Positions 391 through 62,219 of a DNA stretch of 64,000 nucleotides are shown piece by piece; within the stretch, counting starts at the first letter, position 1, and each line of letters starts with the position of its first letter. The position numbers and the translations under genes are program-made. The stretch is from the NCBI GenBank assembly GCA_021824345.1, contig JAKAKW010000002.1:86552-150551 (forward strand), given 5' to 3'. The notes beneath the pieces are model-generated. The model did not search any database and was not told the origin of the DNA. It saw only the letters and a program-made list of their open reading frames with translations. The stretch is from a bacterium. Its GTDB lineage: Bacteria; Patescibacteriota; Minisyncoccia; Phycocordibacterales; UBA9973.

Positions 391-392
391 CC

Positions 393-2156: not shown

Positions 2157-2225
2157 GATGAGCAAGCTAGGGCAGAGGGTAAACATCCGCCCTCTCCACC
2201 CTAGAGAAAATAACCTTGCAGGAGT

Positions 2226-2255
2226 TGCCTTTTTCTTCGAAACTATGGTATAATA
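2226..2255 (+). promoter_or_regulatory. Sigma70-like promoter (TTGCCT -35, 18-bp spacer, extended -10 TGGTATAAT) upstream of the third paralog
   Basis: Direct sequence reading. The -10 TATAAT is at 2250..2255 with TGG immediately upstream. Confidence 0.45.
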
Positions 2256-2282
2256 TAGCGTTAATAAGGGTATTGGCGCGCC

Positions 2283-4010
2283 ATGAATACTCAAGGAAAA
2301 AATTCCTCCCGAGGCGGGCCGCAAGTCTGCCGCAACTGCCGAAGAGAGTTCGTAATAGAACCTCCTGACTTGAAATTTTACCAAAATATAAAAGTTCCTC
2401 CGCCGACCTGGTGTCCGGAGTGCCGGATGGCCAGGCGTTTTTCATTTCAAAATACCTGGAGCTTATACTGGCGTAATTGCGACAAATGCGGAAAGAAAGC
2501 GCTGTCAACTTATCCGCCGGAAAAGAAAATAATCGCTTACTGTTCCGAGTGCTGGTGGGCGGACGATTGGGACGGCACGGAATACGGCATGGATTACGAT
2601 CCTAAAAAAACGTTTTTCGCGCAACTGACAGAATTGAAAGAGCGCACTCCTTTTATGATGTTGCAAAATGATCATGTCACTATCAAAAATTCCGAATATT
2701 CTTCCTATATTGGCTGGAGCCGCGATTGTTACTTGGTATTTTGGGCCGATTACTGCGACAACGTGTGTTATTCTTCCATTTTAAATGGCTTGCGCTTCAG
2801 TTCCGATTGCCTGCGGGGATTTGATTCAGAGCTCTGCTATGAATCCATCGGCTTTTCCGGCAATTACCGCACTTTCTTTTCCGACGAATGCGACAATTGC
2901 GTGGACGTATGGTTTTCCCGCAATTGTTATGGATGTACCAACTGTATTGCCTGTGTCAATCTGCGCGGGGCCTCCTATTGCATCTTCAATAAGAAATATT
3001 CAAAAAATGAATACGTGGAGGAGGTAAGGAAATTGGGATTAAACTCATGGAAAGCCTTGCGCGAATTGGAGAATAGAGCGCACGCCTTCTGGTTGGAAAG
3101 ACCGTACAGAGAATACAACGGGAACAGCTTGAATACTAATGTTTCGGGAGATTACGTGTACGAATCCAGAAATGCGAAGGATATGTACATAGTAAACGGC
3201 GCGGAAAATTGCCGATGGTGCCAGTTCATCACCGTGAAGCCGGCCAAAGATTGCCGCGACTACTCCGGATGGGGGAATAACACTTCTCTCATATATGAAA
3301 GCATTAATGTGGGAGAGGACAGTTACGGCGTACGTTTTTCCGGCATTTGCTGGGCGGACTGCTTAAACCTTGATTACTGCTACTTTTGCATATCCGCGAA
3401 GAACGCTTTCGGATGCGTGAATCTGAAAAGGAAAAATTACTGCATCCTAAACAAACAGTATCCGAAGGAGGAATTTTTCAAACTGCGCGAAAAAATAATT
3501 GAGGACATGAAGAAAAATCCATATACGGACAATATCGGACGCGAATTTCGATATGGAGAATTCTTTCCGCCGGAATTCAGTCCATATCCGTACAACAAAT
3601 CCAATGCCATGCGCTTTCTGCCAAAAACAAAGAGCCAGGCGCTACGGGAAGGGTACTCCTGGGAAGAAGAGGAAATACATAAATATGACACCACTATCGG
3701 ATCGGCGGATCTGCCGGACAGCTTGGAGAAAACGGATGAATCGGTGCTGGAAGAGGTGATAAAATGTCCGAATTGTCCGCGAGGGTACAAGATCGCCAAA
3801 CTCGAATTAGACCTATTGCGCAAGATGGGCCTGCCTCTTCCGCACGAATGCCCTCGTTGCCGGGAAGAGAAGCGCTTCGCCCGGCTGAACAAGCCGAAAT
3901 TCTTTGAGCGCAAATGCGCAAAGTGCGGGGAAAAGATCAGCACCGCCTTTTCTCCCGACCGTCCGGAGATCGTGTACTGCGAAAAGTGCTACCAAGCCGA
4001 ATTTCTTTAG
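2283..4010 (+). CDS. Third paralog of the Cys-rich zinc-ribbon repeat protein family (575 aa)
   Basis: Same N-terminal motif (CRNCRREFVIEPPDLKFYQNIKVPPPTWCPECRMARR), internal duplicated Cys-rich modules, and C-terminal CPNCPRGYKIAKLELDLLRKMGLPLPHECPRCR ... DRPEIVYCEKCYQAEFL. Own promoter TTGCCT-18-TGGTATAAT at about 2226..2255. Confidence 0.6.
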   Translation: MNTQGKNSSRGGPQVCRNCRREFVIEPPDLKFYQNIKVPPPTWCPECRMARRFSFQNTWSLYWRNCDKCGKKALSTYPPEKKIIAYCSECWWADDWDGTEYGMDYDPKKTFFAQLTELKERTPFMMLQNDHVTIKNSEYSSYIGWSRDCYLVFWADYCDNVCYSSILNGLRFSSDCLRGFDSELCYESIGFSGNYRTFFSDECDNCVDVWFSRNCYGCTNCIACVNLRGASYCIFNKKYSKNEYVEEVRKLGLNSWKALRELENRAHAFWLERPYREYNGNSLNTNVSGDYVYESRNAKDMYIVNGAENCRWCQFITVKPAKDCRDYSGWGNNTSLIYESINVGEDSYGVRFSGICWADCLNLDYCYFCISAKNAFGCVNLKRKNYCILNKQYPKEEFFKLREKIIEDMKKNPYTDNIGREFRYGEFFPPEFSPYPYNKSNAMRFLPKTKSQALREGYSWEEEEIHKYDTTIGSADLPDSLEKTDESVLEEVIKCPNCPRGYKIAKLELDLLRKMGLPLPHECPRCREEKRFARLNKPKFFERKCAKCGEKISTAFSPDRPEIVYCEKCYQAEFL

Positions 4011-7541: not shown

Positions 7542-8057
7542 ATGAATGAGATCAAATGCGCGATTTGCGGAAAAAAATTCATGAGAAAGAGATCCCAGAT
7601 ACTTCTGGCGAAGAAGCACTATTGCTCCACGGCCTGCCAGCGCATAGGACGGAGAACCGGGAAGACTATTGGATGCTTTGCTTGCGGCAAGGAGGTTTAT
7701 AAAAAAAGAGAATATTTATTAAGATCAAAAAGCGGCAAGAGTTTCTGCGGAAGAGCTTGCAGCAACGCTTACATAGGGTTGAATCAAAGAGCCAGCAATC
7801 ATCCAAATTGGACAACGGGCATATATTCTTATAGGGAAATAATGAAAAGGGAAAGCATTCGTCCGGGATGTATATTGTGCGGTAAAACAGACCCGAGGAT
7901 ATTATCCGTGCACCATATTGATAAAAATAGGAGTAACAACAAAAAGAGCAATTTGTCCTGGTTATGCAACAATTGCCATTTCCTGGTGCATCATTACAAA
8001 GAAGAGCGGAAAAAGTTTTTTGATTTAATAAAAAAACATGCCTACAGCACAGTGTAA
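7542..8057 (+). CDS. HNH endonuclease-family protein with two N-terminal CxxC...C...C zinc-ribbon repeats
   Basis: Repeated CxxCGKxF...KKHYCSxxC units. C-terminal HNH signature SVHHIDKNRSNNKKSNLSWLCNNCHFLVHH. Confidence 0.7.
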   Translation: MNEIKCAICGKKFMRKRSQILLAKKHYCSTACQRIGRRTGKTIGCFACGKEVYKKREYLLRSKSGKSFCGRACSNAYIGLNQRASNHPNWTTGIYSYREIMKRESIRPGCILCGKTDPRILSVHHIDKNRSNNKKSNLSWLCNNCHFLVHHYKEERKKFFDLIKKHAYSTV

Positions 8058-8544
8058 ATTTTGCAAAAAGAATTTTCATGTCAGTCCGTGGCGGATAAAA
8101 AGCGGATGGGGCATTTATTGCTCATTGGAGTGCAAATACCTTGGAAGCGCCTTCCAGAAAAAATTCTCCTGCTTCACTTGCGGGCAGGATGTTTTCAAAA
8201 CTCCTTCAAAAATAAGAAATTCAAAAAGCGGGAAATTTTTCTGCAGCAAGTCATGCCAGACAAAGTGGCGGAATGTTGTCTTTTCCGGAGAAAAGCACTC
8301 CGGTTACAAAGACGGGAAGCACACATACCGGAGGTTGCTAAAAAAAGCGGACAGAGCCCCAGAGTGCGAAATGTGCGGCACTCGCGACAGGCGCGTTTTA
8401 GCGGCCCATCATATTGACGAAAACCGGGCGCATAACGGTGTAAAGAACCTATCCTGGCTTTGTCACAATTGCCATAAATTGGTACATTATGATAATGTAG
8501 AGAAACAGAGATTTCTAAAAGAGCATAAAAAGAAATTCTCTTGA
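8038..8544 (+). CDS. Second HNH endonuclease-family paralog with the same zinc-ribbon + HNH architecture
   Basis: CKFCKKNF...YCSLEC, CFTCGQDV...FCSKSC, and AAHHIDENRAHNGVKNLSWLCHNCHKLVH. Overlaps the first paralog by 20 nt. Confidence 0.7.
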   Translation: MPTAQCKFCKKNFHVSPWRIKSGWGIYCSLECKYLGSAFQKKFSCFTCGQDVFKTPSKIRNSKSGKFFCSKSCQTKWRNVVFSGEKHSGYKDGKHTYRRLLKKADRAPECEMCGTRDRRVLAAHHIDENRAHNGVKNLSWLCHNCHKLVHYDNVEKQRFLKEHKKKFS

Positions 8545-40116: not shown

Positions 40117-40542
40117 GTGTATACAGCGACCATGGATCCCAAACCATCTTTTGATCAAGAAATAAGCGAAGCTGTACAGCAGTTTGAGACAGAATCAACG
40201 GAAAAACCGGCGCCTTTCGGCAATGAAGGAGCAGAGGCTTCTTCATTGTACCCGCCTCATGCCTCTGTTTCTCAGTCTTCCATTGAAAAGCCTTCGGGCA
40301 TGATCGGGATGGTGATGAAACTCTCCAGCGGAACGGTGAAAACAAGAAAGCAGGCGAATGCGGCGATGTTGATATTCGTAGTTTTGTCGGCGGTTATAAC
40401 TTTGTTTTTACTAACCGGAGGCTTTGCGGGCAAGGCTCCAAACACGACGCCGATATATCAAGAAGATTTGACCCCTACAGCCAGGGCAACTATACCTGGA
40501 AGCGTGCTCAAAACAATACCTTACAAAAATGGGAATAAATGA
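40117..40542 (+). CDS. Hypothetical single-pass membrane protein (acidic/Ser-rich N-domain) preceding a pilin gene
   Basis: One TM helix (AAMLIFVVLSAVITLFLL). No known domain. Overlaps the pilin ORF by 14 nt. Confidence 0.35.
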   Translation: MYTATMDPKPSFDQEISEAVQQFETESTEKPAPFGNEGAEASSLYPPHASVSQSSIEKPSGMIGMVMKLSSGTVKTRKQANAAMLIFVVLSAVITLFLLTGGFAGKAPNTTPIYQEDLTPTARATIPGSVLKTIPYKNGNK

Positions 40543-41026
40543 TTCACAACTGGAAAGAGGTTTCACTCTAATAGAGCTTTTGGTTGTTATAGCAATAATA
40601 GGCGTTTTGGCTTCCGTGGTTCTTGCGAGTCTTACTTCTGCGAGGGAAAAGGCAAAAATAGCAAAGGCTCAATCTGAAATGCGGCAAGTAGTGCAAGCCA
40701 TTATCATAGCCCAAGGGGAACAAGGCAAGCCTCTTCTCGTATTTGCGCCGAATTCAAACTGCGGCCAATGTTATTGCGCTGACATAAATTCCACTTCGTG
40801 TAAAAATAATTGGGTGACCGCCTTGCAACAAATTCAGGACGCAACCAACGGACTGGTTACGGGGTTGACGGCAATGAAGTATGATCCATGGGGACATCCC
40901 TATCTTATTGACGCAAACCAATATGAAGGCGGGTCCAGCGCTTGTTTGAACGCCGATGGTTTTGGGGTATATGGCCAAGGCATACCCAATGCCCCTTCAA
41001 TTCCGCTCAGCCCGGTGTGTCCTTAA
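40529..41026 (+). CDS. Type IV pilin / pseudopilin with class-III (prepilin) signal peptide
   Basis: Leader MGINDSQLERG then FTLIELLVVIAIIGVLASVV (G-1, F+1, E+5 N-methylation motif). The C-terminal domain has Cys pairs. Confidence 0.75.
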   Translation: MGINDSQLERGFTLIELLVVIAIIGVLASVVLASLTSAREKAKIAKAQSEMRQVVQAIIIAQGEQGKPLLVFAPNSNCGQCYCADINSTSCKNNWVTALQQIQDATNGLVTGLTAMKYDPWGHPYLIDANQYEGGSSACLNADGFGVYGQGIPNAPSIPLSPVCP

Positions 41027-45611: not shown

Positions 45612-46139
45612 ATGCGAGAGTATAAACAGTCTACTATTGAAGTAATTATCACCGGCGGTACTATTGATTCTTATTACGAAGGAGCGAAAGATACCGCTGT
45701 ACCGTTGAAATTATCTTCCATTCCTCTCTTTTTCAAACTTATTAAACCAGAGGATAATGTATTTTTTAAAAAGGTTTGCATGAAAGACAGCCGGCAGTTG
45801 AATGGCAATGATTTAAAGAAAATACGTGAGGTTATTAATAAATCCAAATCAAAACTGTTTATTGTCACCCATGGAACGTATACCATGCCTGACACAGCCC
45901 GTTTTTTGGCAACAAACCTAAAAAGAAAAGATTGCACGGTTATTCTTACCGGCTCAATGATTCCGCTTACGGGATTTGCGCCCTCCGATGCTCCGTTTAA
46001 TTTAGGATATTCTTTTGCGATGGTCAAAACGCTTAAACCTGGGATATATGTGTGCATGAATGGAAGAATATTCGATCCAATGGAAGTAGCAAAAAGAATT
46101 TCTGCTGGAAAGTTTGTCTCGGTACTTGGTGAAAATTAG
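45612..46139 (+). CDS. Asparaginase-family protein, N-terminal catalytic domain only (175 aa)
   Basis: ITGGTIDS, FIVTHGTYTMPDTARFL, and LTGSMIPLTGFAPSDAPFNL resemble type I L-asparaginase / GatD N-domain motifs (TGGTIA, HGTDTM, GSMRP..SDGP). Confidence 0.55.
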   Translation: MREYKQSTIEVIITGGTIDSYYEGAKDTAVPLKLSSIPLFFKLIKPEDNVFFKKVCMKDSRQLNGNDLKKIREVINKSKSKLFIVTHGTYTMPDTARFLATNLKRKDCTVILTGSMIPLTGFAPSDAPFNLGYSFAMVKTLKPGIYVCMNGRIFDPMEVAKRISAGKFVSVLGEN

Positions 46140-46747
46140 CTTTTATCTTTTCGGTATTTCTCGATAACTTTCTCGATATCTTTTGTCACCTTAGGAATCG
46201 GCTGATTGCCGTTTATTTTTTTCATTTTACCGAGGCTTTCAAAATACTTTACAGTTTTGCTGACTTGTTTTTTGTGGTAGTCAATCCTGGCCTTTATTAT
46301 TTTGTCGTCATCCAACACTTTGTATATCGCTTTCATATTGCCGGCCTTCCGGGCTCGCGACCTGCGGTATACCTCCCTGTCCGGCAGGGTAATGTAAAAA
46401 GCAAAGAAGTCTTCCTTCTTAGACTCCATGATTTTCTTCAAAAGCTGGGCTTCCGGCTTGAGCCGGGGGTTGCCGATAAAAATCAAGTCTTTCCCTTTCG
46501 GTTTTTTGCCTATTTCATGCACTAAAAATTTTTTCATAAGTGCTACCGGCGCCGGTTTCCCTTGCCCGGTGGTTCTACGCACCCATGCTCCGTCTTGGCT
46601 TTTTTCTTTCATTAACTTGCGCCAATGTACCCCCGATTCTACCGGCCTAAGAGAATATTTTTTCATCAAAATATTTGCCTGGGTCTCCTTGCCAGAAGTA
46701 ATCATCCCCAGAAGCACGATATTGAACCCCAATCTCTCTTTTTTCAT
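46136..46747 (-). CDS. Divergent nucleoside-monophosphate (adenylate) kinase-family paralog
   Basis: P-loop variant GMITSGKETQ. NMP-kinase-like core with basic C-terminal tail. Start at internal ATG (MKKERLGFNIVLLG). Confidence 0.45.
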   Translation of the reverse strand: MKKERLGFNIVLLGMITSGKETQANILMKKYSLRPVESGVHWRKLMKEKSQDGAWVRRTTGQGKPAPVALMKKFLVHEIGKKPKGKDLIFIGNPRLKPEAQLLKKIMESKKEDFFAFYITLPDREVYRRSRARKAGNMKAIYKVLDDDKIIKARIDYHKKQVSKTVKYFESLGKMKKINGNQPIPKVTKDIEKVIEKYRKDKS

Positions 46748-46810
46748 GATGTGCCAATGATATATCAAATACCTTGATTTTTCAAGCTGTTTCTTGTATT
46801 CTAGAACCAT

Positions 46811-47398
46811 ATGCAACCGCAAACTTTCGTGTTTTTCGGCATCGTGGGGTCCGGAAAAGGGACCCAGGTAAAGCTTTTAACCGAATATCTTAAAAAGGAA
46901 GACAATAAAGAAACGGTCTACGCTTATCCCGGGGCTGAATACAGAAAGCTTATGGAAAGCGGAAGCTTTACCGCCACATTAATAAAAGATTCGATCAATC
47001 GCGGAGAACTCCAGCCAGACTTTTTGACCGATGCAATTTTCACCAACATTCTCACTGCCGAGCTTTCTCCCGAAAAGCACCTTATCGCCGACGGATATCC
47101 GCGGACAGTGAAGCAATCCGAAGTTTTTGAAAAGGCGATGAAGTTTTTCAAACGGGAAAATATTAAAATTATTTACATTGAATTGAGCAAGGATGAAGCG
47201 ATGAAACGGAACCTCTTGCGCGGCAGGGAAGACGATACCAAGGAGGGGCTGGAGAAGCGTTTTGACGAATACGTTAACAATGTGGTCCCGGCCATGGAAT
47301 ATTTGAAGGGCAAGCCCGGATATGAAGCTTTTTCCATAAACGGGGAGCAGAGCATAGAAAACGTGCATAAGGATATAGTCAAAGCCCTGGGATTTTAA
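46811..47398 (+). CDS. adk: Adenylate kinase
   Basis: GIVGSGKGTQ P-loop, ADGYPRT, and LID region RGREDD. Confidence 0.85.
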   Translation: MQPQTFVFFGIVGSGKGTQVKLLTEYLKKEDNKETVYAYPGAEYRKLMESGSFTATLIKDSINRGELQPDFLTDAIFTNILTAELSPEKHLIADGYPRTVKQSEVFEKAMKFFKRENIKIIYIELSKDEAMKRNLLRGREDDTKEGLEKRFDEYVNNVVPAMEYLKGKPGYEAFSINGEQSIENVHKDIVKALGF

Positions 47399-48096: not shown

Positions 48097-48216
48097 TGGA
48101 ACCATGAGAACAATTTTTGTAGGGGGTTTCGAGCGCGGCGGCGCGAGAATTTCAGGGATTTTTTCAGCAGAAAAAATCCCGTACCCGGAAAAAATTTGTT
48201 CTCATGGTTCCACGTA
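48097..48216. repeat. Intergenic element exactly filling the pyrH-map gap. 18-bp perfect terminal inverted repeats (gtggaaccatgagaacaa / ttgttctcatggttccac) around a GC palindrome and the hairpin gggattttttcagcagaaaaaatccc.
   Basis: Direct inspection. The 33-nt core gggattttttcagcagaaaaaatcccgtacccg is identical to the reverse complement of 58213..58245. Confidence 0.6.
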
Positions 48217-48222
48217 TTCATA

Positions 48223-48990
48223 ATGATTATTATCAAAACACCCGAGGAAATAGAAATAATGCGTGAAGGCGGGAAGCGCCTTGCGGAAGTGCTCAACAAG
48301 GTAAAAGCTAAAGTAAGGCCCGGAATTTCCACCAAAGAACTGGATGATTATGCCTTTAGGCTGGTAAAGGAGATGGGCGACCGGCCGGCATTTTTAAATT
48401 ATCAGGCCGATGGCGCGGGCAGACCGTATCCGGCCAGCTTGTGCGTTTCAGTGGAAGACGAGGTGGTGCACGGCATTCCAAAGACAGGCAGAATATTGAA
48501 AGAGGGGGACATAGTGTCTCTCGATTTCGGCATTGTGCACCGAGGTCTTTTCACCGATTCGGCGATTACTGTTCCAGTGGGTTCTATCAGTCCGGCCAAG
48601 GAAAAGCTTCTCCGGGCCACTGAAGAAGCCTTGTATGTTGGCATTGACGCTGCTCGTGGAGGAAAGAAAGTGGGAGATATAGGCTACGCCATTGAAAGCT
48701 TTGTGAAAACTTACAAATACGGAATTGTGGACATTCTTTCCGGCCACGGGGTGGGCAGGGAGCTGCATGAAGATCCGTATGTGCCCAATTTCGGCAGAAA
48801 AGGCACCGGCGAGCTTTTAAAACCCGGACAGACTCTAGCCATCGAGCCGATGCTGAATATGGGGGTAAAGGAAGTGATTTTTGACGATGACGGATGGACC
48901 TTTCGCACCGCGGACGGGAAACCATCCGCCCATTTTGAACATACTATTCTCATCACCGACGGCGATCCGGAAATTTTAACAAAAGCGTAG
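48223..48990 (+). CDS. map: Methionine aminopeptidase type I
   Basis: Pita-bread fold motifs: VHGIP, DIVSLDFG, GHGVGRELHEDP. Start at the ATG after the repeat element. Confidence 0.9.
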   Translation: MIIIKTPEEIEIMREGGKRLAEVLNKVKAKVRPGISTKELDDYAFRLVKEMGDRPAFLNYQADGAGRPYPASLCVSVEDEVVHGIPKTGRILKEGDIVSLDFGIVHRGLFTDSAITVPVGSISPAKEKLLRATEEALYVGIDAARGGKKVGDIGYAIESFVKTYKYGIVDILSGHGVGRELHEDPYVPNFGRKGTGELLKPGQTLAIEPMLNMGVKEVIFDDDGWTFRTADGKPSAHFEHTILITDGDPEILTKA

Positions 48991-49059
48991 GCATGCGGGG
49001 CCGTTGCCGTCAGAGCCTTTCCTTGTAGGCAGTCGTAACGTGTTATAATAAATCCAATC

Positions 49060-51831
49060 ATGGAAGAACTGTCCCTGAAAGAAATGCCTAAATTCAAGAC
49101 TCCGGAAGAGGAGCTCTCGTATCTGCGCGCTCAAGTGGCGAACAGAGAGAAAGCGCTAATAAATAGCGGGCACTTTGAACACGCAAACGAAAATGCCGCC
49201 CAAGACGTGCTTTCCGAATACAAGAAAATTCCGCTTGAAAAGGCGGTGCACAAAGACAGCGCCATTTCCAAGGAAGAAAAAGAAAACATCGTACTTTCGC
49301 TCAAGCCTGAAGCGCACGACTCCGTGATGGAGGAATTGCTCGGAGTAGTTTTGGAGAAAGGCATAAAAAACGCGCTTTCCGTGGTGGAAGCCATGAACAA
49401 TCCGCACATAGACGATGATTTTCATCGCGTGCTGATCCAATATTTAAAGACCGGCAATATTCCTTTTCCTTTCAAAGAGGGGGCTCCGCTGTACAAAGCT
49501 CTGCATATGACCTTATTTGAAATCACCTTGCCTCCTCCGGAAGATGAAGGCGGAAAAGAAAAGGGATTCAAGGAATTCATCGGCGCCATGGAGCAATTTT
49601 ATGCGGGTATGGCTTCCATTTCTCAGGGAAAAAACAACGAGTTTGGAAACTATTTCGTTCTGGAGGTGGCGCTCTCCGGCGACAGCGACGAGGTGGTGGT
49701 ATATGCCGCCGTACCGGACCAATTTCTTTCACTTTTTGAAAAACAGATTCTCGCTTACTATCACGCCGCCAAAGTGCGCGAAGTGAAAGACGATTACAAT
49801 ATTTTCAACGAGAAAGGAGTGGCGGTCGGCGCTTACGCGGAGCTTACCGAGAAAGCGGTCATGCCGCTTAAGACCTACGACAACATTGAACACGATCCCA
49901 TGAACACCATTCTGAACGTTTTTTCCAAGCTGGCCACTGTAGGCGAAGGCGCGGCTATCCAGATCGCGGTGGCTCCGGCCGGAGAGAAATACATAAACGA
50001 GTTCCATAAAATTTTAGACGACGTTAAAGGGGGCATGTCCGTGAAGCATGCCAACGACAATTTGTACAAATTCAACAAAGCTTTCCTTCGCATCTCGAAG
50101 GAAATTGTTTTTGGAACAAAGAATAATGAAAATGCCGGCGAAAACAAGGAATTGAGCGCTCCGGGCAGGAGAGCGGTAGACGAAGGAGCTGCGGAAAAGA
50201 TCGGGAACAAAATGAAATCCAGCATCATGAAGGCGAACATAAGAGTGCTGGCTTCCGCCCCCACCGAAATGCGCGCCAACTCCATCCTGCAGGAAATAGA
50301 ATCATCCTTTAACCAGTTCGCCGAGCCGGCCAGTAATTCCTTGTATTTCCGAAAATGTTCCGGCGGAAAGCTCAAACAGCTTTTTCATGATTTTTCCTAC
50401 CGCACGTTTTCAAAGGATGAGGCCCTTCCGTTAAACCTCAAAGAACTTTCTTCCATTTTTCATTTTCCGGTGGGTGTTGGGGCCATGCCCCAGCTTCGAG
50501 AGGCCAGATCCGGCATCGCTCCCGCTCCGATCCAAATGGGCAAGGAGGGCATACTGCTTGGCATAAACAGCTATCGGGGCAAAGACACGGAAGTGCGCAT
50601 GGGCAAGGAAGACCGCATGCGGCATTTCTATGTGATCGGACAAACCGGCACCGGAAAAACGAACGTGATGCTGAATATGATTACCCAAGATATAAAGAAC
50701 GGAGACGGAGTGTGCTATATAGACCCGCATGGCACGGACATCCAGACTATTCTCTCGCGCATTCCGAAGGAGCGGGTGGACGACGTGATCTACTTTGATC
50801 CTAGCTATATTGCCCGGCCCATGGGCTTGAACATGCTTGAGTATGATCCGAAATATCCCGAGCAGAAAACTTTCGTGGTGAACGAAATGATGAACATCTT
50901 TAACAAGCTTTTTGACATGAAAGTGGGAGGAGGACCTATGTTCGAGCAGTATTTCCGAAACTCGGCGTTTCTGGTGATGGAAGACCCCGATTCTGGTTCC
51001 ACTTTGCTTGAAATTACCCGTGTCTTGGCGGATAAGGATTTTCGGGATATGAAACTGGAACGCTGCAAGAATCCGATCATCAAGCAGTTCTGGGTTTCCG
51101 CTGAGCAGACCACCGGAGACCAATCTTTGGCCAACTTTGTTCCATATATTTCATCTAAGTTTGACAACTTCATTTCCAACGACATCATGCGTCCGGTGGT
51201 GCTTCAGCAAAATTCCGTTTTTAACTTTCGTAAAATAATGGACGAAAAAAAGATTCTCCTGGTGAATCTTTCAAAAGGGCGCTTGGGAGAGATAAACTCA
51301 AATTTGATCGGGCTGGTGCTGGCCGGCAAAATCCAGATGGCGGCCCTGTCCCGGGTGGACATGTTCGGCCAGAAGATGAACGACTTCTATCTTTATATTG
51401 ACGAATTCCAGAATGTTACCACCGATTCCATTTCCTCTATCCTTTCAGAGGCGCGGAAATACCGCCTGTCTCTTAATATCGCCCACCAGTACATAAATCA
51501 GCTGGAAGAGGGGATAAAGAACGCGGTATTTGGAAACGTCGGATCTATGGCGGTATTCCGAGTAGGCGCCGAGGATGCCCAATTCCTTGAACCGAAGTTC
51601 AAGCCGACTTTCAGCGCCCGCGACATCACCCGGTTGGAAAACTACAACGCTTACATGAATATGTTGATAAACGGAGAGCCTTCCAAGCCATTCAATATGA
51701 AGACTCTTCCGCCGGAAAAGGGCAATTCGGAGATAGTGCAGAGCCTAAAGGAGCTTTCGTACATGAAATACGGCCGGGATAGGGAAGAAGTGGAAAAAGA
51801 AATTATGGCCCGATACGAGTCAGCTCAGTAA
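49060..51831 (+). CDS. VirD4/TraG/TraD-like type IV coupling-protein ATPase fused to a ~500-aa N-terminal region of unknown function
   Basis: C-terminal half has Walker A GQTGTGKT, a CYIDPHGTD (DPKG-like) motif, and Walker B LYIDEFQN, typical of the TraG-D_C/T4SS-DNA-transfer family. The N-terminal half has no recognisable motif. Confidence 0.6.
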   Translation: MEELSLKEMPKFKTPEEELSYLRAQVANREKALINSGHFEHANENAAQDVLSEYKKIPLEKAVHKDSAISKEEKENIVLSLKPEAHDSVMEELLGVVLEKGIKNALSVVEAMNNPHIDDDFHRVLIQYLKTGNIPFPFKEGAPLYKALHMTLFEITLPPPEDEGGKEKGFKEFIGAMEQFYAGMASISQGKNNEFGNYFVLEVALSGDSDEVVVYAAVPDQFLSLFEKQILAYYHAAKVREVKDDYNIFNEKGVAVGAYAELTEKAVMPLKTYDNIEHDPMNTILNVFSKLATVGEGAAIQIAVAPAGEKYINEFHKILDDVKGGMSVKHANDNLYKFNKAFLRISKEIVFGTKNNENAGENKELSAPGRRAVDEGAAEKIGNKMKSSIMKANIRVLASAPTEMRANSILQEIESSFNQFAEPASNSLYFRKCSGGKLKQLFHDFSYRTFSKDEALPLNLKELSSIFHFPVGVGAMPQLREARSGIAPAPIQMGKEGILLGINSYRGKDTEVRMGKEDRMRHFYVIGQTGTGKTNVMLNMITQDIKNGDGVCYIDPHGTDIQTILSRIPKERVDDVIYFDPSYIARPMGLNMLEYDPKYPEQKTFVVNEMMNIFNKLFDMKVGGGPMFEQYFRNSAFLVMEDPDSGSTLLEITRVLADKDFRDMKLERCKNPIIKQFWVSAEQTTGDQSLANFVPYISSKFDNFISNDIMRPVVLQQNSVFNFRKIMDEKKILLVNLSKGRLGEINSNLIGLVLAGKIQMAALSRVDMFGQKMNDFYLYIDEFQNVTTDSISSILSEARKYRLSLNIAHQYINQLEEGIKNAVFGNVGSMAVFRVGAEDAQFLEPKFKPTFSARDITRLENYNAYMNMLINGEPSKPFNMKTLPPEKGNSEIVQSLKELSYMKYGRDREEVEKEIMARYESAQ

Positions 51832-51911
51832 ATTGCAAAAATGCTGTTTTTTTGGTAATATGTCTGTATTACAACCACAGCATCAGCTGTTTTTTATTTA
51901 TGAATTAAGAT

Positions 51912-52496
51912 ATGAAACACCCGAAAGAAGAAAAAACGTTTGTAATGGTTAAGCCGGACGGAGTACGCAAAGGCTTGATAGGCCAGGTAATCAGCCGTTT
52001 TGAACAGCGAGATCTGAAGATTGTGGCGCTTGAAATGTTCCAGCCCACCCATGAGCAGATTCATGATCATTATCCCAAGGACGAAGCTTGGATTACTCGC
52101 CTCGGAGAGAAAACCAAATCGACCTATGAAAAATACGGATATGACCTGATCGCCGATTTCAACACGGAAGACGCGGCCCAAATCGGCCCGGAAGTTAGAA
52201 CCTGGCTGGTTGACTACATGAAATCCGCGCCTTTAGTCAAAATGGTGGTGCAGGGCGTTCATGCAGTGGATATCGTGCGCAAGCTTGCGGGCGATACCCT
52301 TCCGTATCGTGCGGCCGTAGGTACTATTAGAGGGGATTTTTCCATTGATTCTCCGGTGCTTGCCAACAAAGAAAAAAGAGCGGTGGCGAATATAATCCAT
52401 TGTTCGGAAACTCCCGAAGAAGCGGAACACGAAATCCAACATTGGTTCGGGAAGGCAGTTTTGCACGAATACAAGCGCTTCGGAGTGGACGAATAG
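51912..52496 (+). CDS. ndk: Nucleoside diphosphate kinase with ~40-aa insertion
   Basis: KTFVMVKPDGVRKGLIGQVISRFEQRDLKIVALEM and GTIRGDF signatures with active-site His. Insertion between residues about 55 and 95. Confidence 0.8.
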   Translation: MKHPKEEKTFVMVKPDGVRKGLIGQVISRFEQRDLKIVALEMFQPTHEQIHDHYPKDEAWITRLGEKTKSTYEKYGYDLIADFNTEDAAQIGPEVRTWLVDYMKSAPLVKMVVQGVHAVDIVRKLAGDTLPYRAAVGTIRGDFSIDSPVLANKEKRAVANIIHCSETPEEAEHEIQHWFGKAVLHEYKRFGVDE

Positions 52497-52516: not shown

Positions 52517-52556
52517 GGCGGGCTGTGGAAAATTATTTCCACAGCCCGCCTTTTTT
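52517..52556 (+). terminator. Intrinsic terminator after ndk (15-bp stem ggcgggctgtggaaa/tttccacagcccgcc + T-run)
   Basis: Perfect inverted repeat followed by ttttttat. Confidence 0.7.
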
Positions 52557-57699: not shown

Positions 57700-57786
57700 G
57701 AGCTGTACATTAAAATTCCCTCAAAGGGGAATTAGTATTGCCAAGTCTAGCGTATTTGGGAAGGAAAGTCAATTGTAATAAAATCA

Positions 57787-58184
57787 TGTGGAGATGGGGG
57801 AAATCGAATCCCCGTGCAAGAGGCTGCGGAAGGAAGGTCTACATGCTTAGCGCGCTTTTTGATTTGAGCCGGCGGATTCTTAAGCGAGCCAAATATCCGC
57901 GAGCCGATTCCTTAAGGTTTGGAGAGAGACCAGGAAAAATCTCTTCCTATCCCGATAATGTTACACCTCGCCCAATCTATCGGAAGTTGAAAGGGGAGAC
58001 GCCGGCGTTCTTAAGCGAAAGCCGGAGCGAAAGCGAAGTCCTTCGCACCGAAGTACGGAGAGACCATTGCCATCACCTTGGAAGTCAATTTTGCAATTAA
58101 CTGTTTGGGCGAAGTTTTGCGAGTTTACGCCCATTCTCGGCATGCATTCGGGCCGCCGGCCTATTGTCTATGCCTGGCATCCCC
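57787..58184 (-). ncRNA. ssrA: tmRNA (SsrA), ~398 nt, adjacent to smpB
   Basis: 5' end GGGGAUG and 3' end GGGGAUUCGAUUUCCCCCAUCUCC-A-CA form a tRNA-Ala-like acceptor stem with G3:U wobble and T-arm. An internal reading frame reads GCG AAG GAC UUC GCU UUC GCU CCG GCU UUC GCU UAA (tag (A)KDFAFAPAFA), stop near plus coordinate 58008. Confidence 0.7.
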
Positions 58185-58832: not shown

Positions 58833-58948
58833 AGCCGGAGAAGATATAAATTTATGCGATGGTTTGGCCGAGCTTCCAGCTCCGCAGGAGCAAAATTTTG
58901 GCGAGGAGAGCCGAGGACCTCGCGGAAATTTATATCTTTTCCGGCTTC
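58833..58948. repeat. Intergenic element upstream of ftsH bounded by ~21-bp inverted repeats (agccggagaagatataaattt / aaatttatatcttttccggct, 1 mismatch) with GC-rich interior (ggccgagc motif)
   Basis: Direct inspection. Same architecture as the other IR-flanked elements. Confidence 0.45.
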
Positions 58949-58988
58949 TTTAATTTCATTCGGGGCGTTTTCATGCTATACTCGCAGA

Positions 58989-61900
58989 ATGGATTTCAAT
59001 CTTAGAAACAGCCAGGAGCCGAAAATGAAAGGAAAAAAACCTCCGGAAAGAGGTCCTGGTTTTGCTGGCAGCATCGCCTCGGTGATTCTTATCTTTATGA
59101 TAATCACCGCCATATATCTTTTGATTTCGGACGCTTCCCAGCCGGTTCCCGCCATTCCCATTTCCCAGGTTGCGGAAGATGTTTCTTCCGGCGCGGTGCA
59201 AAAGATAGAAGTGCAGGGGAACGATCTTACGGTCACTTACAAGGACAAGGAAGTGAAAAAATCAAAGAAAGAGACGGAAACTTCCTTAACCGACACTCTG
59301 TCAAACTACGGAGTGAGCAAGCAGGTGCTTGACGCCACCGAGATAGACATTCAAGAACCGGACGGATTCGGGTACTGGGCGATAAACATTCTGCCGTATC
59401 TTCTGCCCATTATCTTCATCGTGATTTTCTTCTGGTACATTTCCCGGCAGGTTAAAGGGGCCGGCATGCAGGCGTTCACCTTCGGCCAGTCCAAGGCGCG
59501 CATTACCGATCCTTCCGACAAGAACAATCGCATCACTTTCAAAGACGTGGCCGGATGCAAAGAAGCGAAAGAAGAACTGAAGGAAATTGTGGATTTTTTG
59601 AAAAACCCCAAAAAGTTCCTGGATATCGGAGCGCGCATACCCAAAGGAGTGATTCTTACGGGAGCGCCCGGAACCGGCAAGTGCGTCAATGGCGATACAT
59701 TGATACAAACATCCAAAGGCCTTGTTGCAATAGAAGATGTGCCGAAATACTTTTCAGTAAATTCAGATAATACAGTGGAAGGGTTAAGAGTGATAACTAT
59801 TGACCCGAAGAACGGGACTTTAAAAACCACGGATGCTTCGCATTGGTATTCTTTAGGGGAGCAAGAAACTGTTGCCATAAAGACGGAATCGGGAATGTTT
59901 TTGGAAGGTACGCCGGAACACCCTATCATCGTAGTTGATAAAGATACAGGCCATTTTGTTTTCAAAAAATTAGCTGATATAACAACCGACGACTGGTGCG
60001 TGGTGGGCTCCCGGACGGAGGTATTCGGAACGCATACAAAAATTCCAGGCCCGGAAACCGCTTATATACTTGGTGTTTTGACGGGTGACGGATGCATGAC
60101 CATTAAAGGCAGAATAGTTCTTTCCACTATTGATAAAGAGATTTTGAGCCGGGTGCAAGATAATGTTAAGAGATTGTTCGGCGAGGAGTTTTCAAAAATT
60201 TCCGCCCATAAATGCGATTATCAGCTTTCAAATAGCAAGGCAAAGAATGCGTTATTGTCTTTTGGACTTTCAGAAACATACGCGAAAAATAAGAGGATTC
60301 TTGAGTGGGTTCGTTTTGCTCCCAAAGAGCACATAAGCAATTTCCTGCAAGGATTGTTTGATACCGATGGCACGGTTGAAAAGAGCGGAAGCGTAAGTTT
60401 GTCCAGCGCCAGCGAACACTTAATAAGAGAAGTGCAATTTATGCTTCTTAATCTCGGCATAGTGACCAGAAGGTATGAGCGCCAGAAGAAATACAACAAT
60501 CAACTCCAATACTACATTGTTATTTATGGAGATTTTGTGCAGTCTTTTCAGAACCAAATAGGGTTTTCAGTTGTCAGGAAAAAAGAAAGATTGGAAAAAA
60601 TTTGCCTCAAACAGCGAAATACAAATGTAAATGTCATACCTTCGCAAGGCAAGTCTATTCACATGGTCTGGAAACAGGCGGTAGCCACCTCAGGAATGGT
60701 TTTTAATAGGGAATTTTATAATCAATCTATTTATAAAAATTTCAAACGATACGTTTCGGGAGAACGGATGCCTTCCCTTAAAGGGATGTCAATATTTCTC
60801 GAAGGAACATCTCGCATTTCACCGTATATAAACGAAATGCCCGAGGTGGCGCATTTGAAAAGCTTGTCTTCCGGTAATTTTTTCTTTAGTAAAATTGATT
60901 CCATTAGCCGAGGCAGGAACAAAGTATATGATCTTACTGTACCGGTAACCCATAATTTTTTGGCCAATGGATTTTTTAATCATAACACCATGCTGGCCAG
61001 GGCCATCGCGGGCGAAGCGAGCGTGCCCTTCTACCATCTTTCCGGTTCGGAATTCGTGGAAATGTTCGTGGGCGTGGGCGCCAGCCGGGTGCGGGATCTT
61101 TTCCGGGTGGCCAAGAAATCCGCTCCGGCCATAATATTCATTGATGAAATTGACGCCATCGGCAGAACCCGCGGAGGGGGATTCGGAGGAAGCAATGACG
61201 AACGCGAGCAGACCTTGAACCAAATTCTGGTGGAAATGGACGGCTTCGAGCCGAACGAGAAGCTGATCGTGATTGCGGCCACCAACCGGCCGGATGTTCT
61301 TGACCCTGCCTTAATACGTCCCGGACGCTTTGACCGCAAAGTGGTGCTGGATCTTCCGGATCGCAACGACCGCGAAGAAATTCTGAAAATTCACGCCCAG
61401 AAAAAGCCCTTGGCGGAAGATGTGAATCTGCATCTTGTCGCCGAGCGTACCCCGGGCTTTTCCGGCGCCGATCTTTACTCTTTAATGAATGAAGGCGCCA
61501 TTCTGGCCGCCCGGGAAAACCGCAAAAAAGTGTTCCAATTTGACCTGATCCGGGCGATTGAAAAAGTAATGCTGGGTCCGGAACGCAAAAGCCACCTGCT
61601 TTCCAAGAAAGAAAAAGAAATTACCGCCTATCATGAAGCCGGGCACGCTATCGTGGCCTCGGTATTGCCTCACGCGGATCCGGTGCACAAAGTTTCCATA
61701 ATCGCCCGCGGACGCGCCGGGGGATATACGCTTAAGCTTCCTCTGGAAGAACGTCGATTGCAATCTCGGAAAGAATTCATTGACGATATCGCCATGTCGC
61801 TCGGAGGATATGCCGCGGAAAAAATGATGTTTGGGGATATTACTACCGGACCGTCCAGCGATCTGCAGATGGCCACGAACCTAGCCCGGGCCATGGTCAC

Positions 61901-62219
61901 TCGCTTCGGCATGTCCGACAGCATCGGCCCGGTCACCTGGGCGGAAGGAGAAGGAAAGCCGGGCTGGGGAGAACTTCGGGAAGATTCCCGTTCGGAAAGC
62001 GTGGCCGCGAAGATTGACGATGAAGTTTCCAGAATCGTGAATGATGGCATAAAAACGGCGCAAAAAGTGCTGAAGGATCACAAGAAAGCCTTCACTGCCA
62101 TTGCCAAGAAGCTTATCGAAGTGGAAACTTTGGAACGGGACGAATATGAAAAAATTCTCATCGCCCACGGCATAGAGCTGAAAAAGAAGGACGAGCCGGA
62201 GGTGGTCATAGAAGGCTAA
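58989..62219 (+). CDS. ftsH: ATP-dependent zinc metalloprotease FtsH, interrupted in-frame by a 435-aa intein within the Walker A motif
   Basis: Two TM helices and periplasmic domain. [12 protein letters not shown] then intein then [18 protein letters not shown]+ second region of homology. HEAGHAIV zinc motif. Start at ATG 58989 (the ORF track begins upstream in the leader). Confidence 0.85.
59682..60986 (+). mobile_element. Intein with LAGLIDADG homing-endonuclease domain inserted between Lys and Thr of the FtsH P-loop (GPPGTGK | T)
   Basis: Begins CVNGDTLI (block A, Cys1). TPEH (block B). Two LAGLIDADG motifs ([24 protein letters not shown]). Ends [21 protein letters not shown] followed by +1 Thr. 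Insert is AT-richer than flanking ftsH. Confidence 0.8.

What the first reader, a model, noticed from the sequence alone, without database searches (positions are those of the whole stretch)
49060..51831. Large VirD4/TraG-like coupling ATPase with a novel ~500-aa N-terminal domain, sitting where infA-rpmJ-rpsM-rpsK-rpoA normally follow map
After map the conserved alpha-operon genes are missing from this position. Instead there is a 923-aa protein. Its C-terminal half has Walker A GQTGTGKT, a DPHG motif and Walker B DEFQN, as in type IV secretion/conjugation coupling proteins or DNA translocases. Its N-terminal half matches nothing I recognise. Together with the pilin in the spc cluster, this may be part of a DNA-uptake or cell-cell transfer machinery typical of episymbiotic CPR. 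There is no integrase, relaxase or VirB4 nearby, so it does not look like a conventional conjugative element.
Basis: partly seen in the sequence, partly recalled or inferred. Interest (0 to 1): 0.55.

Follow-up and report, generated by a model that had tools for sequence, protein, structure and literature searches.

The report
Chromosomal coupling-protein-like ATPase of Patescibacteria
The 923-residue protein after map is real, but it belongs to a known, Patescibacteria-wide family of conjugation-type "coupling protein" ATPases (Pfam DUF8128 plus a TrwB/VirD4-like motor). Here it is a soluble, chromosomally fixed core gene of unknown cellular role, not part of a mobile element.

Summary
The ORF at 49060-51831 (+, 923 aa) and its motifs are confirmed: GQTGTGKT, DPHG and DEFQN. 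The C-terminal half is a T4CP-like P-loop motor. Sequence profiles match TrwB and DotL best, and the predicted fold matches TrwB with TM 0.66.

The "novel" N-terminal half is not novel. Residues ~143-470 are Pfam DUF8128 (PF26449). Their predicted fold matches only the VirB4 (TrwK) ATPase of the R388 type IV secretion system. Residues 1-141 match a small protein that other Patescibacteria encode just upstream of a membrane-anchored form of the same ATPase, so this looks like a gene fusion that replaced the anchor.

In Bacillus plasmids the same two-domain protein heads a conjugation operon. It sits next to a relaxase gene and is separate from a true VirB4, so the family's ancestral role is coupling protein.

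In 80 Nomurabacteria/Paceibacteria species genomes the order map-ATPase-ndk is nearly invariant. The protein is as conserved as SecY and IF3 (median 76% identity). It is therefore a domesticated core gene.

A 2025 paper already counted such orphan T4CP homologues across Patescibacteria. The cellular function remains unknown. Verdict: new variant of a known kind, moderate interest.

The parts
49060..51831 (+). Complete ORF, 923 aa: DUF8128-type T4CP-like ATPase, soluble form
   Evidence: ORF list. The identical protein P0001 carries PF26449 + PF10412. No hydrophobic segment: the highest 19-residue Kyte-Doolittle mean is 1.27.
49060..49482 (+). aa 1-141: helical N-terminal module, homologous to a separate small protein encoded just upstream of the membrane-anchored paralogue or orthologue in other Patescibacteria (inferred gene fusion)
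   Evidence: AF2 predicts helices 15-131. An HMM of this module hits the upstream small proteins L084_130 (26.9 bits), L090_140 (16.0) and L088_164 (13.9). BLASTP of the window module against L084_130 gives E 5e-6. The module and an N-terminal TM helix are mutually exclusive among full-length representatives: 25 against 12, none with both.
49486..50469 (+). aa 143-470: DUF8128 (PF26449), alpha/beta domain with a predicted VirB4-N-terminal-domain-like fold; a disordered loop at aa ~337-373
   Evidence: Pfam label. AF2 pLDDT is mostly 85-97. In Foldseek against PDB the top 9 hits are all R388 TrwK/VirB4, E 1.2e-4 to 1.1e-3, probability 0.99-1.0, followed by noise. BFVD: Bacillus phage JL and phage G gp156, E ~5e-17.
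50545..51714 (+). aa 496-885: P-loop nucleotide-binding domain of the T4CP/VirB4/HerA/FtsK clade
   Evidence: Pfam TrwB_AAD_bind, DUF87 and TraG-D_C. NCBIfam TraD and CD1115 VirD4-like, below their cutoffs. Family profile against PDB sequences: TrwB 4.5e-8, DotL 5.6e-6. Foldseek: TrwB TMt 0.66, rmsd ~5 A.
50638..50661 (+). Walker A GQTGTGKT (aa 527-534)
   Evidence: G527, T529, G530, G532 and K533 are invariant in 60 family members.
50722..50733 (+). DPHG motif (aa 555-558)
   Evidence: D555, P556 and G558 are invariant; H557 is at least 90% conserved.
50857..51207 (+). aa ~600-716: all-alpha insertion between Walker A and Walker B, in the position of the all-alpha domain of TrwB
   Evidence: AF2 helices 602-714. 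The whole C-terminal domain superposes on TrwB-deltaN70, which includes the all-alpha domain. The functional equivalence is inferred.
51400..51414 (+). Walker B DEFQN (aa 781-785)
   Evidence: D781, E782 and N785 are invariant.
51445..51492 (+). SEARKY...IAHQY (aa 796-811): conserved Arg/Lys and Gln block after Walker B. Candidate arginine finger and sensor, by analogy with HerA, VirB4 and T4CP
   Evidence: E797, R799, K800, Y801 and Q810 are invariant in 60 sequences. The role is inferred, not tested.
48196..48990 (+). map (methionine aminopeptidase), the conserved upstream neighbour
   Evidence: Peptidase_M24. map lies directly upstream in nearly all related loci.
51912..52496 (+). ndk, the conserved downstream neighbour
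   Evidence: PF00334 NDK. ndk follows the ATPase in about 69 of 80 loci.
52517..52550 (+). Strong terminator-like hairpin (15-bp stem plus T-run) after ndk. It is the first strong one downstream of map, which suggests a map-ATPase-ndk transcript
   Evidence: Consensus scan only. Between the ATPase and ndk there is only a 5-bp stem (51877-51890).

Best explanation
The gene encodes a domesticated, chromosomal member of the DUF8128-type coupling-protein (T4CP-like) ATPases.

This is a monoderm conjugation-derived family with two domains: an N-terminal domain with a VirB4-NTD-like fold (DUF8128), and a TrwB/VirD4-like P-loop motor carrying an all-alpha insertion.

In most Patescibacteria the protein is tethered by one N-terminal transmembrane helix, and a ~130-165-aa helical protein is encoded directly upstream. 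In the Nomurabacteria/Paceibacteria lineage of this window that small partner appears to have been fused to the N-terminus in place of the anchor. The result is a soluble 920-aa protein, fixed between map and ndk and conserved as strongly as SecY or IF3.

Inferred mechanism:
- It assembles into a ring, as TrwB, VirB4 and HerA do.
- It uses ATP hydrolysis (intact Walker A and B, conserved Arg/Gln block) to feed a polymer substrate, most likely nucleic acid, into or out of an envelope translocon.
- The DUF8128 domain and the fused helical module dock it to partners, most plausibly the relaxase-less chromosomal T4SS that these genomes encode elsewhere.

Shown: the family assignment, the domain anatomy, the fusion signal and the core-gene status. 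Inferred: ring assembly, the substrate, the direction of transport and the T4SS partnership.
For: - T4CP-like motor by sequence and fold: Pfam and NCBIfam hits, family profile against PDB sequences with TrwB 4.5e-8 and DotL 5.6e-6, and Foldseek to TrwB with TMt 0.66.
- DUF8128 is annotated on the identical protein and on all homologues.
- VirB4-like fold of the N-terminal domain, and of the whole two-domain protein.
- In Bacillus plasmids the homologue has DUF8128 (HMM E 9e-25 and 5e-31) plus the C-terminal domain (1.6e-47). It is the first gene of an operon that continues with a replication-relaxation protein, TcpE, a separate 848-aa VirB4-like ATPase and conjugal transfer proteins. That is the coupling-protein position.
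- A small upstream partner is present in 5 of 5 TM-form loci, and in 3 of them it is homologous to window aa ~80-135. The TM helix and the N-terminal module are mutually exclusive.
- Synteny is conserved in 80 species genomes. Median identity is 75.9%, against SecY 75.3, IF3 75.4, map 67 and adk 63.
- Literature (PMC12102498, main text and Table S3): 5,713 T4CP homologues in 2,918 Patescibacteria genomes, only 148 near virB4. The three Nomurabacteria genomes listed carry two t4cp1 hits plus a separate VirB2/VirB3/TrsD/VirB4 cluster.
Against: - No T4SS, relaxase or membrane-partner gene lies next to it in the window or in the 80 related loci.
- The protein has no membrane anchor, so any docking to a translocon is hypothetical.
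- All NCBIfam T4CP models are hit far below their cutoffs (45 bits against 366).
- The t4cp homologue of Ca. Southlakia epibionticum was reported as non-essential, while the other T4SS genes were essential (PMC12102498). This argues that T4CP homologues may work independently of the T4SS.
- T4CP homologues occur in more genomes (2,918) than VirB4 does (2,417).
- The similarity to the VirB4 N-terminal domain rests on a predicted structure with low TM-scores (0.30-0.34). hhalign gives it no support (probability below 1%).
Confidence: 0.6

Rival explanations
1. It is a divergent VirB4-type ATPase, that is, a T4SS assembly or pilus-biogenesis motor rather than a coupling protein. Its N-terminal domain would bind VirB3/VirB8-like partners, as in R388.
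For: The best full-length fold matches are R388 TrwK/VirB4 (E 1.4e-13, about 900 aligned columns). The N-terminal domain matches only VirB4 chains. The TM-form resembles the known VirB3-VirB4 fusions in having an N-terminal TM helix (the resemblance is from general knowledge).
Against: - Neither the protein nor its family profile gives any sequence match to VirB4.
- hhalign against Firmicutes VirB4 matches only at Walker A.
- Family members carry T4CP Pfam domains (PF02534, PF10412, PF12696) and never VirB4 ones.
- The Bacillus plasmids encode this protein and a separate true VirB4 in the same operon.
- Patescibacteria genomes have their own VirB4 clade elsewhere.
Confidence: 0.15
2. It is an FtsK/SpoIIIE-like or other housekeeping DNA pump, for chromosome segregation or DNA processing, unrelated to secretion. 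That would explain its place among housekeeping genes.
For: It belongs to the same ATPase superfamily. It sits in a housekeeping array and is conserved like a ribosomal protein. In TM-form loci an FtsQ-like POTRA_1 gene lies a few genes upstream in 2 of 5 cases.
Against: No FtsK_SpoIIIE or FtsK_gamma Pfam hit and no TM domain. Nomurabacteria genomes carry separate FtsK/TcpA-type (t4cp2) genes (Table S3). The closest sequence and fold relatives are TrwB, DotL and VirB4.
Confidence: 0.1
3. It is a HerA-like helicase of a repair or anti-phage defence system (HerA-NurA, MADS mad8, Sir2/DUF4297-HerA type).
For: DUF87/HerA hits. PADLOC mad8 E 6e-11 and HerA models. Foldseek hits to HerA, E 1.8e-11.
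Against: - No nuclease or effector partner is adjacent.
- The position is invariant in 80 species, which is unlike variable defence islands.
- The N-terminal domain matches VirB4 and no HerA chain in the PDB fold search, so there is no sign of a HerA HAS-barrel.
- T4CP matches are stronger than HerA matches with the family profile.
Confidence: 0.07
4. It is a remnant of an integrated conjugative element or plasmid.
For: Distant homologues lie in Bacillus conjugation modules and in phages.
Against: The flanks are the same in about 75 of 80 species genomes. GC content is 0.47-0.49, like the surrounding sequence. There is no integrase, relaxase or repeats. Purifying selection is strong.
Confidence: 0.03

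Closest known systems
Patescibacteria 'orphan' T4CP (VirD4-type, CONJScan t4cp1) homologues described by Quinonero-Coronel et al. 2025 (PMC12102498)
   Same: Both are chromosomal, far from virB4, without a relaxase and near-universal in the phylum. Nomurabacteria genomes carry two such genes plus a separate T4SS cluster.
   Different: In the parts of that paper read here, the main-text passages on T4CP and part of Table S3, I saw no mention of the DUF8128 domain, the two architectures (TM-anchored or fused-partner soluble) or the fixed map-ndk position. I could not check directly that this protein is one of their t4cp1 hits.
TrwB (R388) / VirD4 / DotL type IV coupling proteins
   Same: P-loop domain with an all-alpha insertion. 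They are the best sequence-profile matches (TrwB 4.5e-8, DotL 5.6e-6), and the fold match has TMt 0.66. The homologue in Bacillus plasmids sits next to a relaxase.
   Different: No N-terminal transmembrane domain. An extra ~330-aa DUF8128 domain and a fused ~140-aa helical module. No relaxase or T4SS genes nearby. Scores are far below the curated T4CP family cutoffs.
VirB4 / TrwK (R388 T4SS inner-membrane-complex ATPase)
   Same: Two-domain architecture with an N-terminal alpha/beta domain and a C-terminal ATPase. It is the only PDB fold match of the N-terminal domain and the top match of the full-length model.
   Different: No detectable sequence similarity outside Walker A. It is not encoded with VirB3, VirB6 or VirB8. 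A separate true VirB4 co-exists with it in the Bacillus plasmids and in Patescibacteria.
Bacillus plasmid 'DUF87 domain-containing protein' (for example WP_121549396.1 on NZ_CP032854.1) and Bacillus phage G gp156 / phage JL / CP-51 proteins (phrog_5156)
   Same: The same DUF8128 plus ATPase architecture without a TM segment (the TM check covered the plasmid proteins only). Matches: HMM E 9e-25 to 5e-31 for DUF8128 and 1.6e-47 for the C-terminal domain, phrog_5156 E 8e-86, BFVD E ~5e-17.
   Different: Only 21-27% identical. They are encoded on mobile elements. They lack the N-terminal helical module and have different C-terminal extensions.

Membership tests
DUF8128 (Pfam PF26449) family | Match to the PF26449 profile | tested here: met
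   The precomputed Pfam annotation of the identical protein P0001 and of all listed homologues includes PF26449. It is named DUF8128. The local Pfam copy did not report it, so the model is presumably absent from that copy.
VirD4/TraG/TrwB type IV coupling proteins (T4CP) | P-loop NBD of the T4CP clade with Walker A and B | tested here: met
   Motifs located. PF10412 scores 24.8 bits against a cutoff of 20.5, and PF12696 scores 22.8 against 22. TrwB and DotL are the best PDB sequence matches of the family profile. Fold TMt is 0.66 to TrwB.
VirD4/TraG/TrwB type IV coupling proteins (T4CP) | All-alpha domain inserted between Walker A and Walker B | tested here: inconclusive
   AF2 predicts an all-helical insertion at aa 602-714, and the domain superposes on TrwB-deltaN70. 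Residue-level equivalence to the TrwB all-alpha domain was not examined.
VirD4/TraG/TrwB type IV coupling proteins (T4CP) | N-terminal transmembrane anchor | tested here: not met
   No hydrophobic segment: the highest 19-residue hydropathy is 1.27. Related ~800-aa forms have one N-terminal TM helix.
VirD4/TraG/TrwB type IV coupling proteins (T4CP) | Reaches curated family thresholds (NCBIfam TraD or VirD4 models) | tested here: not met
   TIGR03743 scores 45.1 bits against a cutoff of 366, TIGR03754 scores 38.1 against 648, and NF045973 scores 31.3 against 250.
VirD4/TraG/TrwB type IV coupling proteins (T4CP) | Encoded with a relaxase and/or T4SS (Mpf) genes | tested here: not met
   None in the window or in the 80 related loci. 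The feature is met only by distant Bacillus plasmid homologues.
VirD4/TraG/TrwB type IV coupling proteins (T4CP) | Substrate recruitment to a T4SS, hexamer formation, DNA-dependent ATPase activity | not testable with these tools
   Needs biochemistry or genetics.
VirB4 ATPases | N-terminal domain plus C-terminal ATPase architecture and fold | tested here: met
   Predicted structures only. The N-terminal domain matches TrwK at E 1.2e-4, probability 1.0, TMq 0.34. The full-length model matches at E 1.4e-13 over about 900 columns. The target ranges of the alignments were not shown.
VirB4 ATPases | Sequence membership (VirB4/CagE/TrbE profiles) | tested here: not met
   No VirB4 family in the Pfam or NCBIfam hits and no VirB4 chain in the profile search against PDB. 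hhalign against 9 Firmicutes VirB4 sequences gives an N-terminal-domain probability below 1%, and the C-terminal domains match only at Walker A.
VirB4 ATPases | Adjacent VirB3, VirB6 and VirB8 genes | tested here: not met
HerA helicases | HAS-barrel N-terminal domain and a NurA or effector partner | tested here: not met
   In the PDB fold search the N-terminal domain matches only VirB4 chains and no HerA. A HAS-barrel was not looked for directly. No nuclease neighbour. NF040819 scores 16.8 bits against a cutoff of 970.
FtsK/SpoIIIE translocases | Multi-TM N-terminus, FtsK_SpoIIIE motor and gamma (KOPS-binding) domain | tested here: not met
   No such Pfam hits and no TM segment.

The most novel reading that the evidence does not exclude
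DUF8128-type ATPases are a third, previously unrecognised branch of the VirB4/VirD4 motor family: a coupling-protein-like motor that keeps a VirB4-like N-terminal domain, and so a possible evolutionary intermediate.

In Patescibacteria this branch would have been recruited as an essential housekeeping importer or exporter of nucleic acid (host DNA or RNA) feeding nucleotide salvage. That would fit its fixed position beside adk, a UMP-kinase-like gene, ndk, a beta-CASP RNase and a SLOG/LOG-like gene, and its ribosomal-protein-level conservation.

The soluble fused-partner form would be a new way of coupling such a motor to the envelope without a membrane anchor.
Probability: 0.15. Interest if true: 0.8.

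Novelty: new variant of a known kind. Interest (0 to 1): 0.45.

Why it matters
Patescibacteria are ultrasmall epibionts that must obtain nucleotides and other building blocks from their hosts. In the one genetically tractable species their T4SS is essential, yet its substrate and motor logic are unknown.

This protein family is the near-universal "orphan coupling protein" of the phylum. Four results here give concrete handles for experiments and for T4SS evolution studies:
- the family has a VirB4-like N-terminal domain;
- it has a conserved small partner, which is fused to the ATPase in this lineage;
- it has a conjugative ancestor in monoderm plasmids;
- in one large order it is conserved like a ribosomal protein at a fixed chromosomal site.

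None of this reveals a new kind of system. The family is already in Pfam and has already been flagged in the literature.

Tried and rejected
- **hhalign, DUF8128 against VirB4 N-terminal domains.** I aligned the N-terminal domains of 9 Firmicutes plasmid VirB4 proteins. The probability was below 1%, so the VirB4-NTD relationship is supported by predicted structure only. The C-terminal domains matched only around Walker A (92%).
- **Pfam scan of the 60-member alignment.** I relied on the precomputed Pfam columns instead.
- **Literature search for 'DUF8128'.** No papers found.
- **Integrated plasmid or ICE.** Rejected on synteny and composition.
- **Defence-system reading from the PADLOC mad8/HerA hits.** Rejected, because the locus is invariant and has no effector gene.
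- **Functional link to the pilin in the spc cluster.** Rejected. The pilin is of the type IV-pilin kind, and a prepilin motif is present upstream of rpsN in only 6 of the 80 related loci.
- **Which of the two t4cp1 hits is this gene?** I could not tell from Table S3 which of the two t4cp1 hits per Nomurabacteria genome corresponds to the gene after map.
- **tmRNA.** ARAGORN found none near smpB, but Rfam did.
Full report
**Observation**

Motif positions come:
- Walker A GQTGTGKT, aa 527-534
- DPHG, aa 555-558
- Walker B DEFQN, aa 781-785

The gene lies 69 nt downstream of map and 80 nt upstream of ndk. The window runs from nusG/rplK through the S10 and spc ribosomal clusters, secY, adk and map. 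It has no infA, rpmJ, rpsM, rpsK, rpsD or rpoA (ORF list; six-frame motif scan). It has no integrase, relaxase or VirB4. GC content across the gene (0.47-0.49) matches the flanks.

**The C-terminal half**

Pfam gives marginal but above-threshold hits to TrwB_AAD_bind, DUF87 and TraG-D_C. NCBIfam gives sub-threshold hits to conjugative TraD and VirD4-like models. A profile of 60 family members searched against PDB sequences puts the coupling proteins first: TrwB at 4.5e-8 and DotL at 5.6e-6. HerA scores near 0.01 and no VirB4 chain appears.

The AlphaFold2 model of the full protein has mean pLDDT 80.5. It superposes on TrwB-deltaN70 with TM 0.66 normalised to TrwB, at about 5 A rmsd. It has an all-helical insertion (aa ~602-714) between Walker A and Walker B, where TrwB carries its all-alpha domain. 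The protein reaches no curated T4CP equivalog threshold.

**The N-terminal half is not novel**

Every homologue, including the identical public protein, carries the precomputed Pfam domain PF26449, labelled DUF8128. An exhaustive HMMER search with residues 1-495 found 1,010 clusters at 50% identity.

An AlphaFold2 model of residues 1-500 has mean pLDDT 81.7, with the DUF8128 core mostly above 90. Searched against the PDB with Foldseek, its nine best hits are all chains of the R388 T4SS ATPase TrwK/VirB4 (E 1.2e-4 to 1.1e-3, probability 0.99-1.0). The list then drops abruptly to noise.

The full-length model also ranks TrwK/VirB4 first (E 1.4e-13, about 900 aligned columns), ahead of HerA and TrwB. 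So the overall architecture is that of VirB4: an N-terminal alpha/beta domain plus a C-terminal ATPase.

Three caveats apply:
- TM-scores are low (0.24-0.34).
- The target ranges of the alignments were not displayed.
- hhalign of DUF8128 against an alignment of nine Firmicutes VirB4 N-terminal domains was not significant (probability below 1%).

The VirB4-NTD relationship is therefore a structural prediction, not a sequence-level result.

**Two architectures and a fusion**

Alignment of diverse representatives and a domain census show two mutually exclusive forms:
- Proteins of about 800-840 aa. They begin with a single strongly hydrophobic helix followed directly by DUF8128.
- Proteins of about 910-930 aa, like the window protein. 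They have no hydrophobic segment and instead carry a ~140-aa helical N-terminal module.

In all five TM-form loci examined, a gene for a 130-164-aa protein without Pfam domains lies immediately upstream, in one case overlapping the ATPase start codon.

An HMM of the window family's N-terminal module hits three of these small proteins: 26.9, 16.0 and 13.9 bits, with E 4.5e-8 to 4.6e-4 against about 225 sequences. The other two are weak. Pairwise BLASTP of the window module against the best one gives E 5e-6 over the conserved H-D...KG...N-P-H..D..H block.

I infer that the window protein is a fusion of this small partner to the ATPase, with loss of the anchor. The statistics are modest. The positional evidence (5 of 5 loci) and the mutual exclusivity (25 against 12, none with both) strengthen the inference.

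**Where the family comes from**

tblastn against plasmids found 323 records. In Bacillus subtilis plasmids of 24.7 and 64.7 kb, the homologue is an 886- or 913-aa "DUF87 domain-containing protein". It matches the Patescibacteria-derived DUF8128 HMM (E 9e-25 and 5e-31) and the C-terminal-domain HMM (E 1.6e-47 and 5.3e-37), and it has no TM segment.

It is the first gene of an operon with this order: replication-relaxation (relaxase-type) protein, conjugal transfer protein, TcpE (VirB3-like), a separate ~850-aa ATP-binding protein, and a large conjugal transfer protein. That separate ATPase retrieves the VirB4-position ATPases of Clostridium perfringens, Enterococcus and other Firmicutes plasmids, several of them beside TcpE or conjugal-transfer genes.

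So in monoderm conjugation modules the DUF8128 protein occupies the coupling-protein position next to the relaxase and co-exists with a true VirB4. Bacillus phages (G gp156, JL, CP-51, Slash) also encode it.

**What it is in this genome**

A scan of one genome per species returned 80 loci, all from Nomurabacteria/Paceibacteria-type MAGs, at 63-79% identity. In almost all of them the order is spc cluster - secY - adk - (UMP-kinase-like) - map - ATPase - ndk - beta-CASP metallo-beta-lactamase - SLOG/LOG-like - (rplT rpmI infC, reverse).

Median identity of the ATPase to the window protein is 75.9%. That equals SecY (75.3) and IF3 (75.4), and exceeds map (67.0) and adk (63.1).

The first strong terminator-like hairpin after map lies behind ndk, at 52517-52550 (a consensus scan only). 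This is a vertically inherited core gene under strong purifying selection, not a mobile element.

**Literature**

Quinonero-Coronel et al. 2025 (PMC12102498) report the following:
- 5,713 T4CP homologues in 2,918 of 3,035 Patescibacteria genomes, of which only 148 are near virB4.
- Relaxases are almost absent.
- The t4cp of Ca. Southlakia epibionticum is non-essential, unlike the other T4SS genes.

Their Table S3 lists two t4cp1 (VirD4-type) hits for each of three Nomurabacteria genomes. It also lists two adjacent t4cp2 (TcpA/FtsK-type) hits and a separate VirB2/VirB4/TrsD/VirB3 cluster. The Microgenomatia genomes on the same page have a single t4cp1.

This fits a pan-phylum TM-form plus a lineage-specific soluble paralogue, but I could not map accessions to confirm it. 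In the parts of the paper I read, the DUF8128 domain, its fold and the two architectures were not mentioned. A text search for "DUF8128" found no paper.

**Mechanism**

Shown:
- an intact, highly conserved P-loop motor of the T4CP/VirB4 clade
- a VirB4-like predicted N-terminal domain
- a fused conserved helical module
- no membrane anchor
- core-gene status

Inferred, by analogy with TrwB, VirB4 and HerA:
- The protein forms a ring and couples ATP hydrolysis to the movement of a polymer, most likely nucleic acid.
- The N-terminal domain and the fused module mediate docking or regulation, in the way small partner proteins act on other coupling proteins.
- The most plausible partner is the chromosomal, relaxase-less T4SS encoded elsewhere in these genomes.

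T4CP homologues occur in more genomes than VirB4 does, and one of them is non-essential. The alternative of a T4SS-independent role therefore stays open. The neighbourhood is rich in nucleotide-salvage genes (adk x2, UMP-kinase-like, ndk, beta-CASP RNase, SLOG). Recent proposals hold that Patescibacteria feed on host nucleic acids. Together these make an import-for-salvage role an attractive speculation, but the synteny may simply be inherited.

**Rivals**

- A true VirB4: fold evidence is for it; sequence, co-occurrence and context are against it.
- An FtsK-like segregation pump: separate FtsK-type genes exist, and there are no FtsK domains here.
- A HerA-type repair or defence helicase: there is no partner nuclease, and the locus is invariant.
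- An element remnant: the synteny refutes it.

**Verdict**

The "novel N-terminal domain" is a catalogued domain of unknown function with a T4SS-ATPase-like fold, and the family has already been flagged in the literature.

What this analysis adds:
- the VirB4-like prediction for DUF8128
- the partner-fusion and anchor-loss architecture
- the conjugative ancestry in Bacillus plasmids
- the ribosomal-protein-level conservation at a fixed site

Classification: new variant of a known kind. Interest is moderate.

Noticed in passing
window 58854-62219 (+): The ftsH gene (1121 aa) is interrupted directly after the Walker A GAPGTGK by an intein with a LAGLIDADG homing-endonuclease domain (Pfam Intein_splicing, LAGLIDADG_3 on the public copy).
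   Followed up: partly
window 40117-41026 (+): A 141-aa protein with one hydrophobic segment and a 165-aa type IV-pilin-like protein (N_methyl motif, E 1.8e-8) are inserted between rplE and rpsN inside the spc ribosomal cluster. A prepilin motif upstream of rpsN recurs in only 6 of the 80 related loci.
   Followed up: partly
window 46136-46822 (-) and 46811-47398 (+): Two divergent adenylate-kinase genes lie back to back, with start regions overlapping by 12 nt. The reverse-strand copy is present in only a subset of relatives.
   Followed up: no
window 45612-46139 (+): A 175-aa protein consisting only of an asparaginase N-terminal domain lies between secY and adk. It is absent from most related loci.
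   Followed up: no
window 57786-58184 (-): A tmRNA gene (Rfam RF00023, 112.5 bits) lies next to smpB. ARAGORN did not detect it.
   Followed up: yes
window 357-4010 (+) and 7542-8544 (+): Two tandem ~575-600-aa paralogues have treble-clef zinc-finger ends, and two tandem ~170-aa Cys-rich HNH-like proteins follow. Their function is unknown.
   Followed up: no
L081 9473-9964, L084 9612-10004, L088 6277-6771, L089 6523-6993, L090 6563-6985: A conserved small (130-164 aa) acidic, helical protein without Pfam domains lies immediately upstream of every TM-anchored DUF8128 ATPase examined. PMT_2-type membrane glycosyltransferase-like genes and an FtsQ-like POTRA_1 gene recur nearby.
   Followed up: partly
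Bacillus phage G gp155/gp156 (BFVD G3MBM1, G3MBM2); JN638751.1 90952-93210: Phage G encodes two adjacent proteins that both match the DUF8128 fold: gp156 with the ATPase (E 6e-17) and gp155 (E 6e-7). This suggests duplication or a split form in phages.
   Followed up: no
L001, L009, L019, L024 and other loci: Many TPA-assembled MAGs titled 'uncultured Candidatus Saccharibacteria bacterium' carry a locus 63-79% identical and fully syntenic with the Nomurabacteria/Paceibacteria loci. Their taxonomic label looks doubtful.
   Followed up: no
window 49038-49043, upstream of the ATG at 49060: A perfect TATAAT box lies 16 nt upstream of the start codon and there is no obvious Shine-Dalgarno sequence. 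This could be an internal promoter giving a very short leader. It was seen in the sequence only; the promoter scan did not call it.
   Followed up: no
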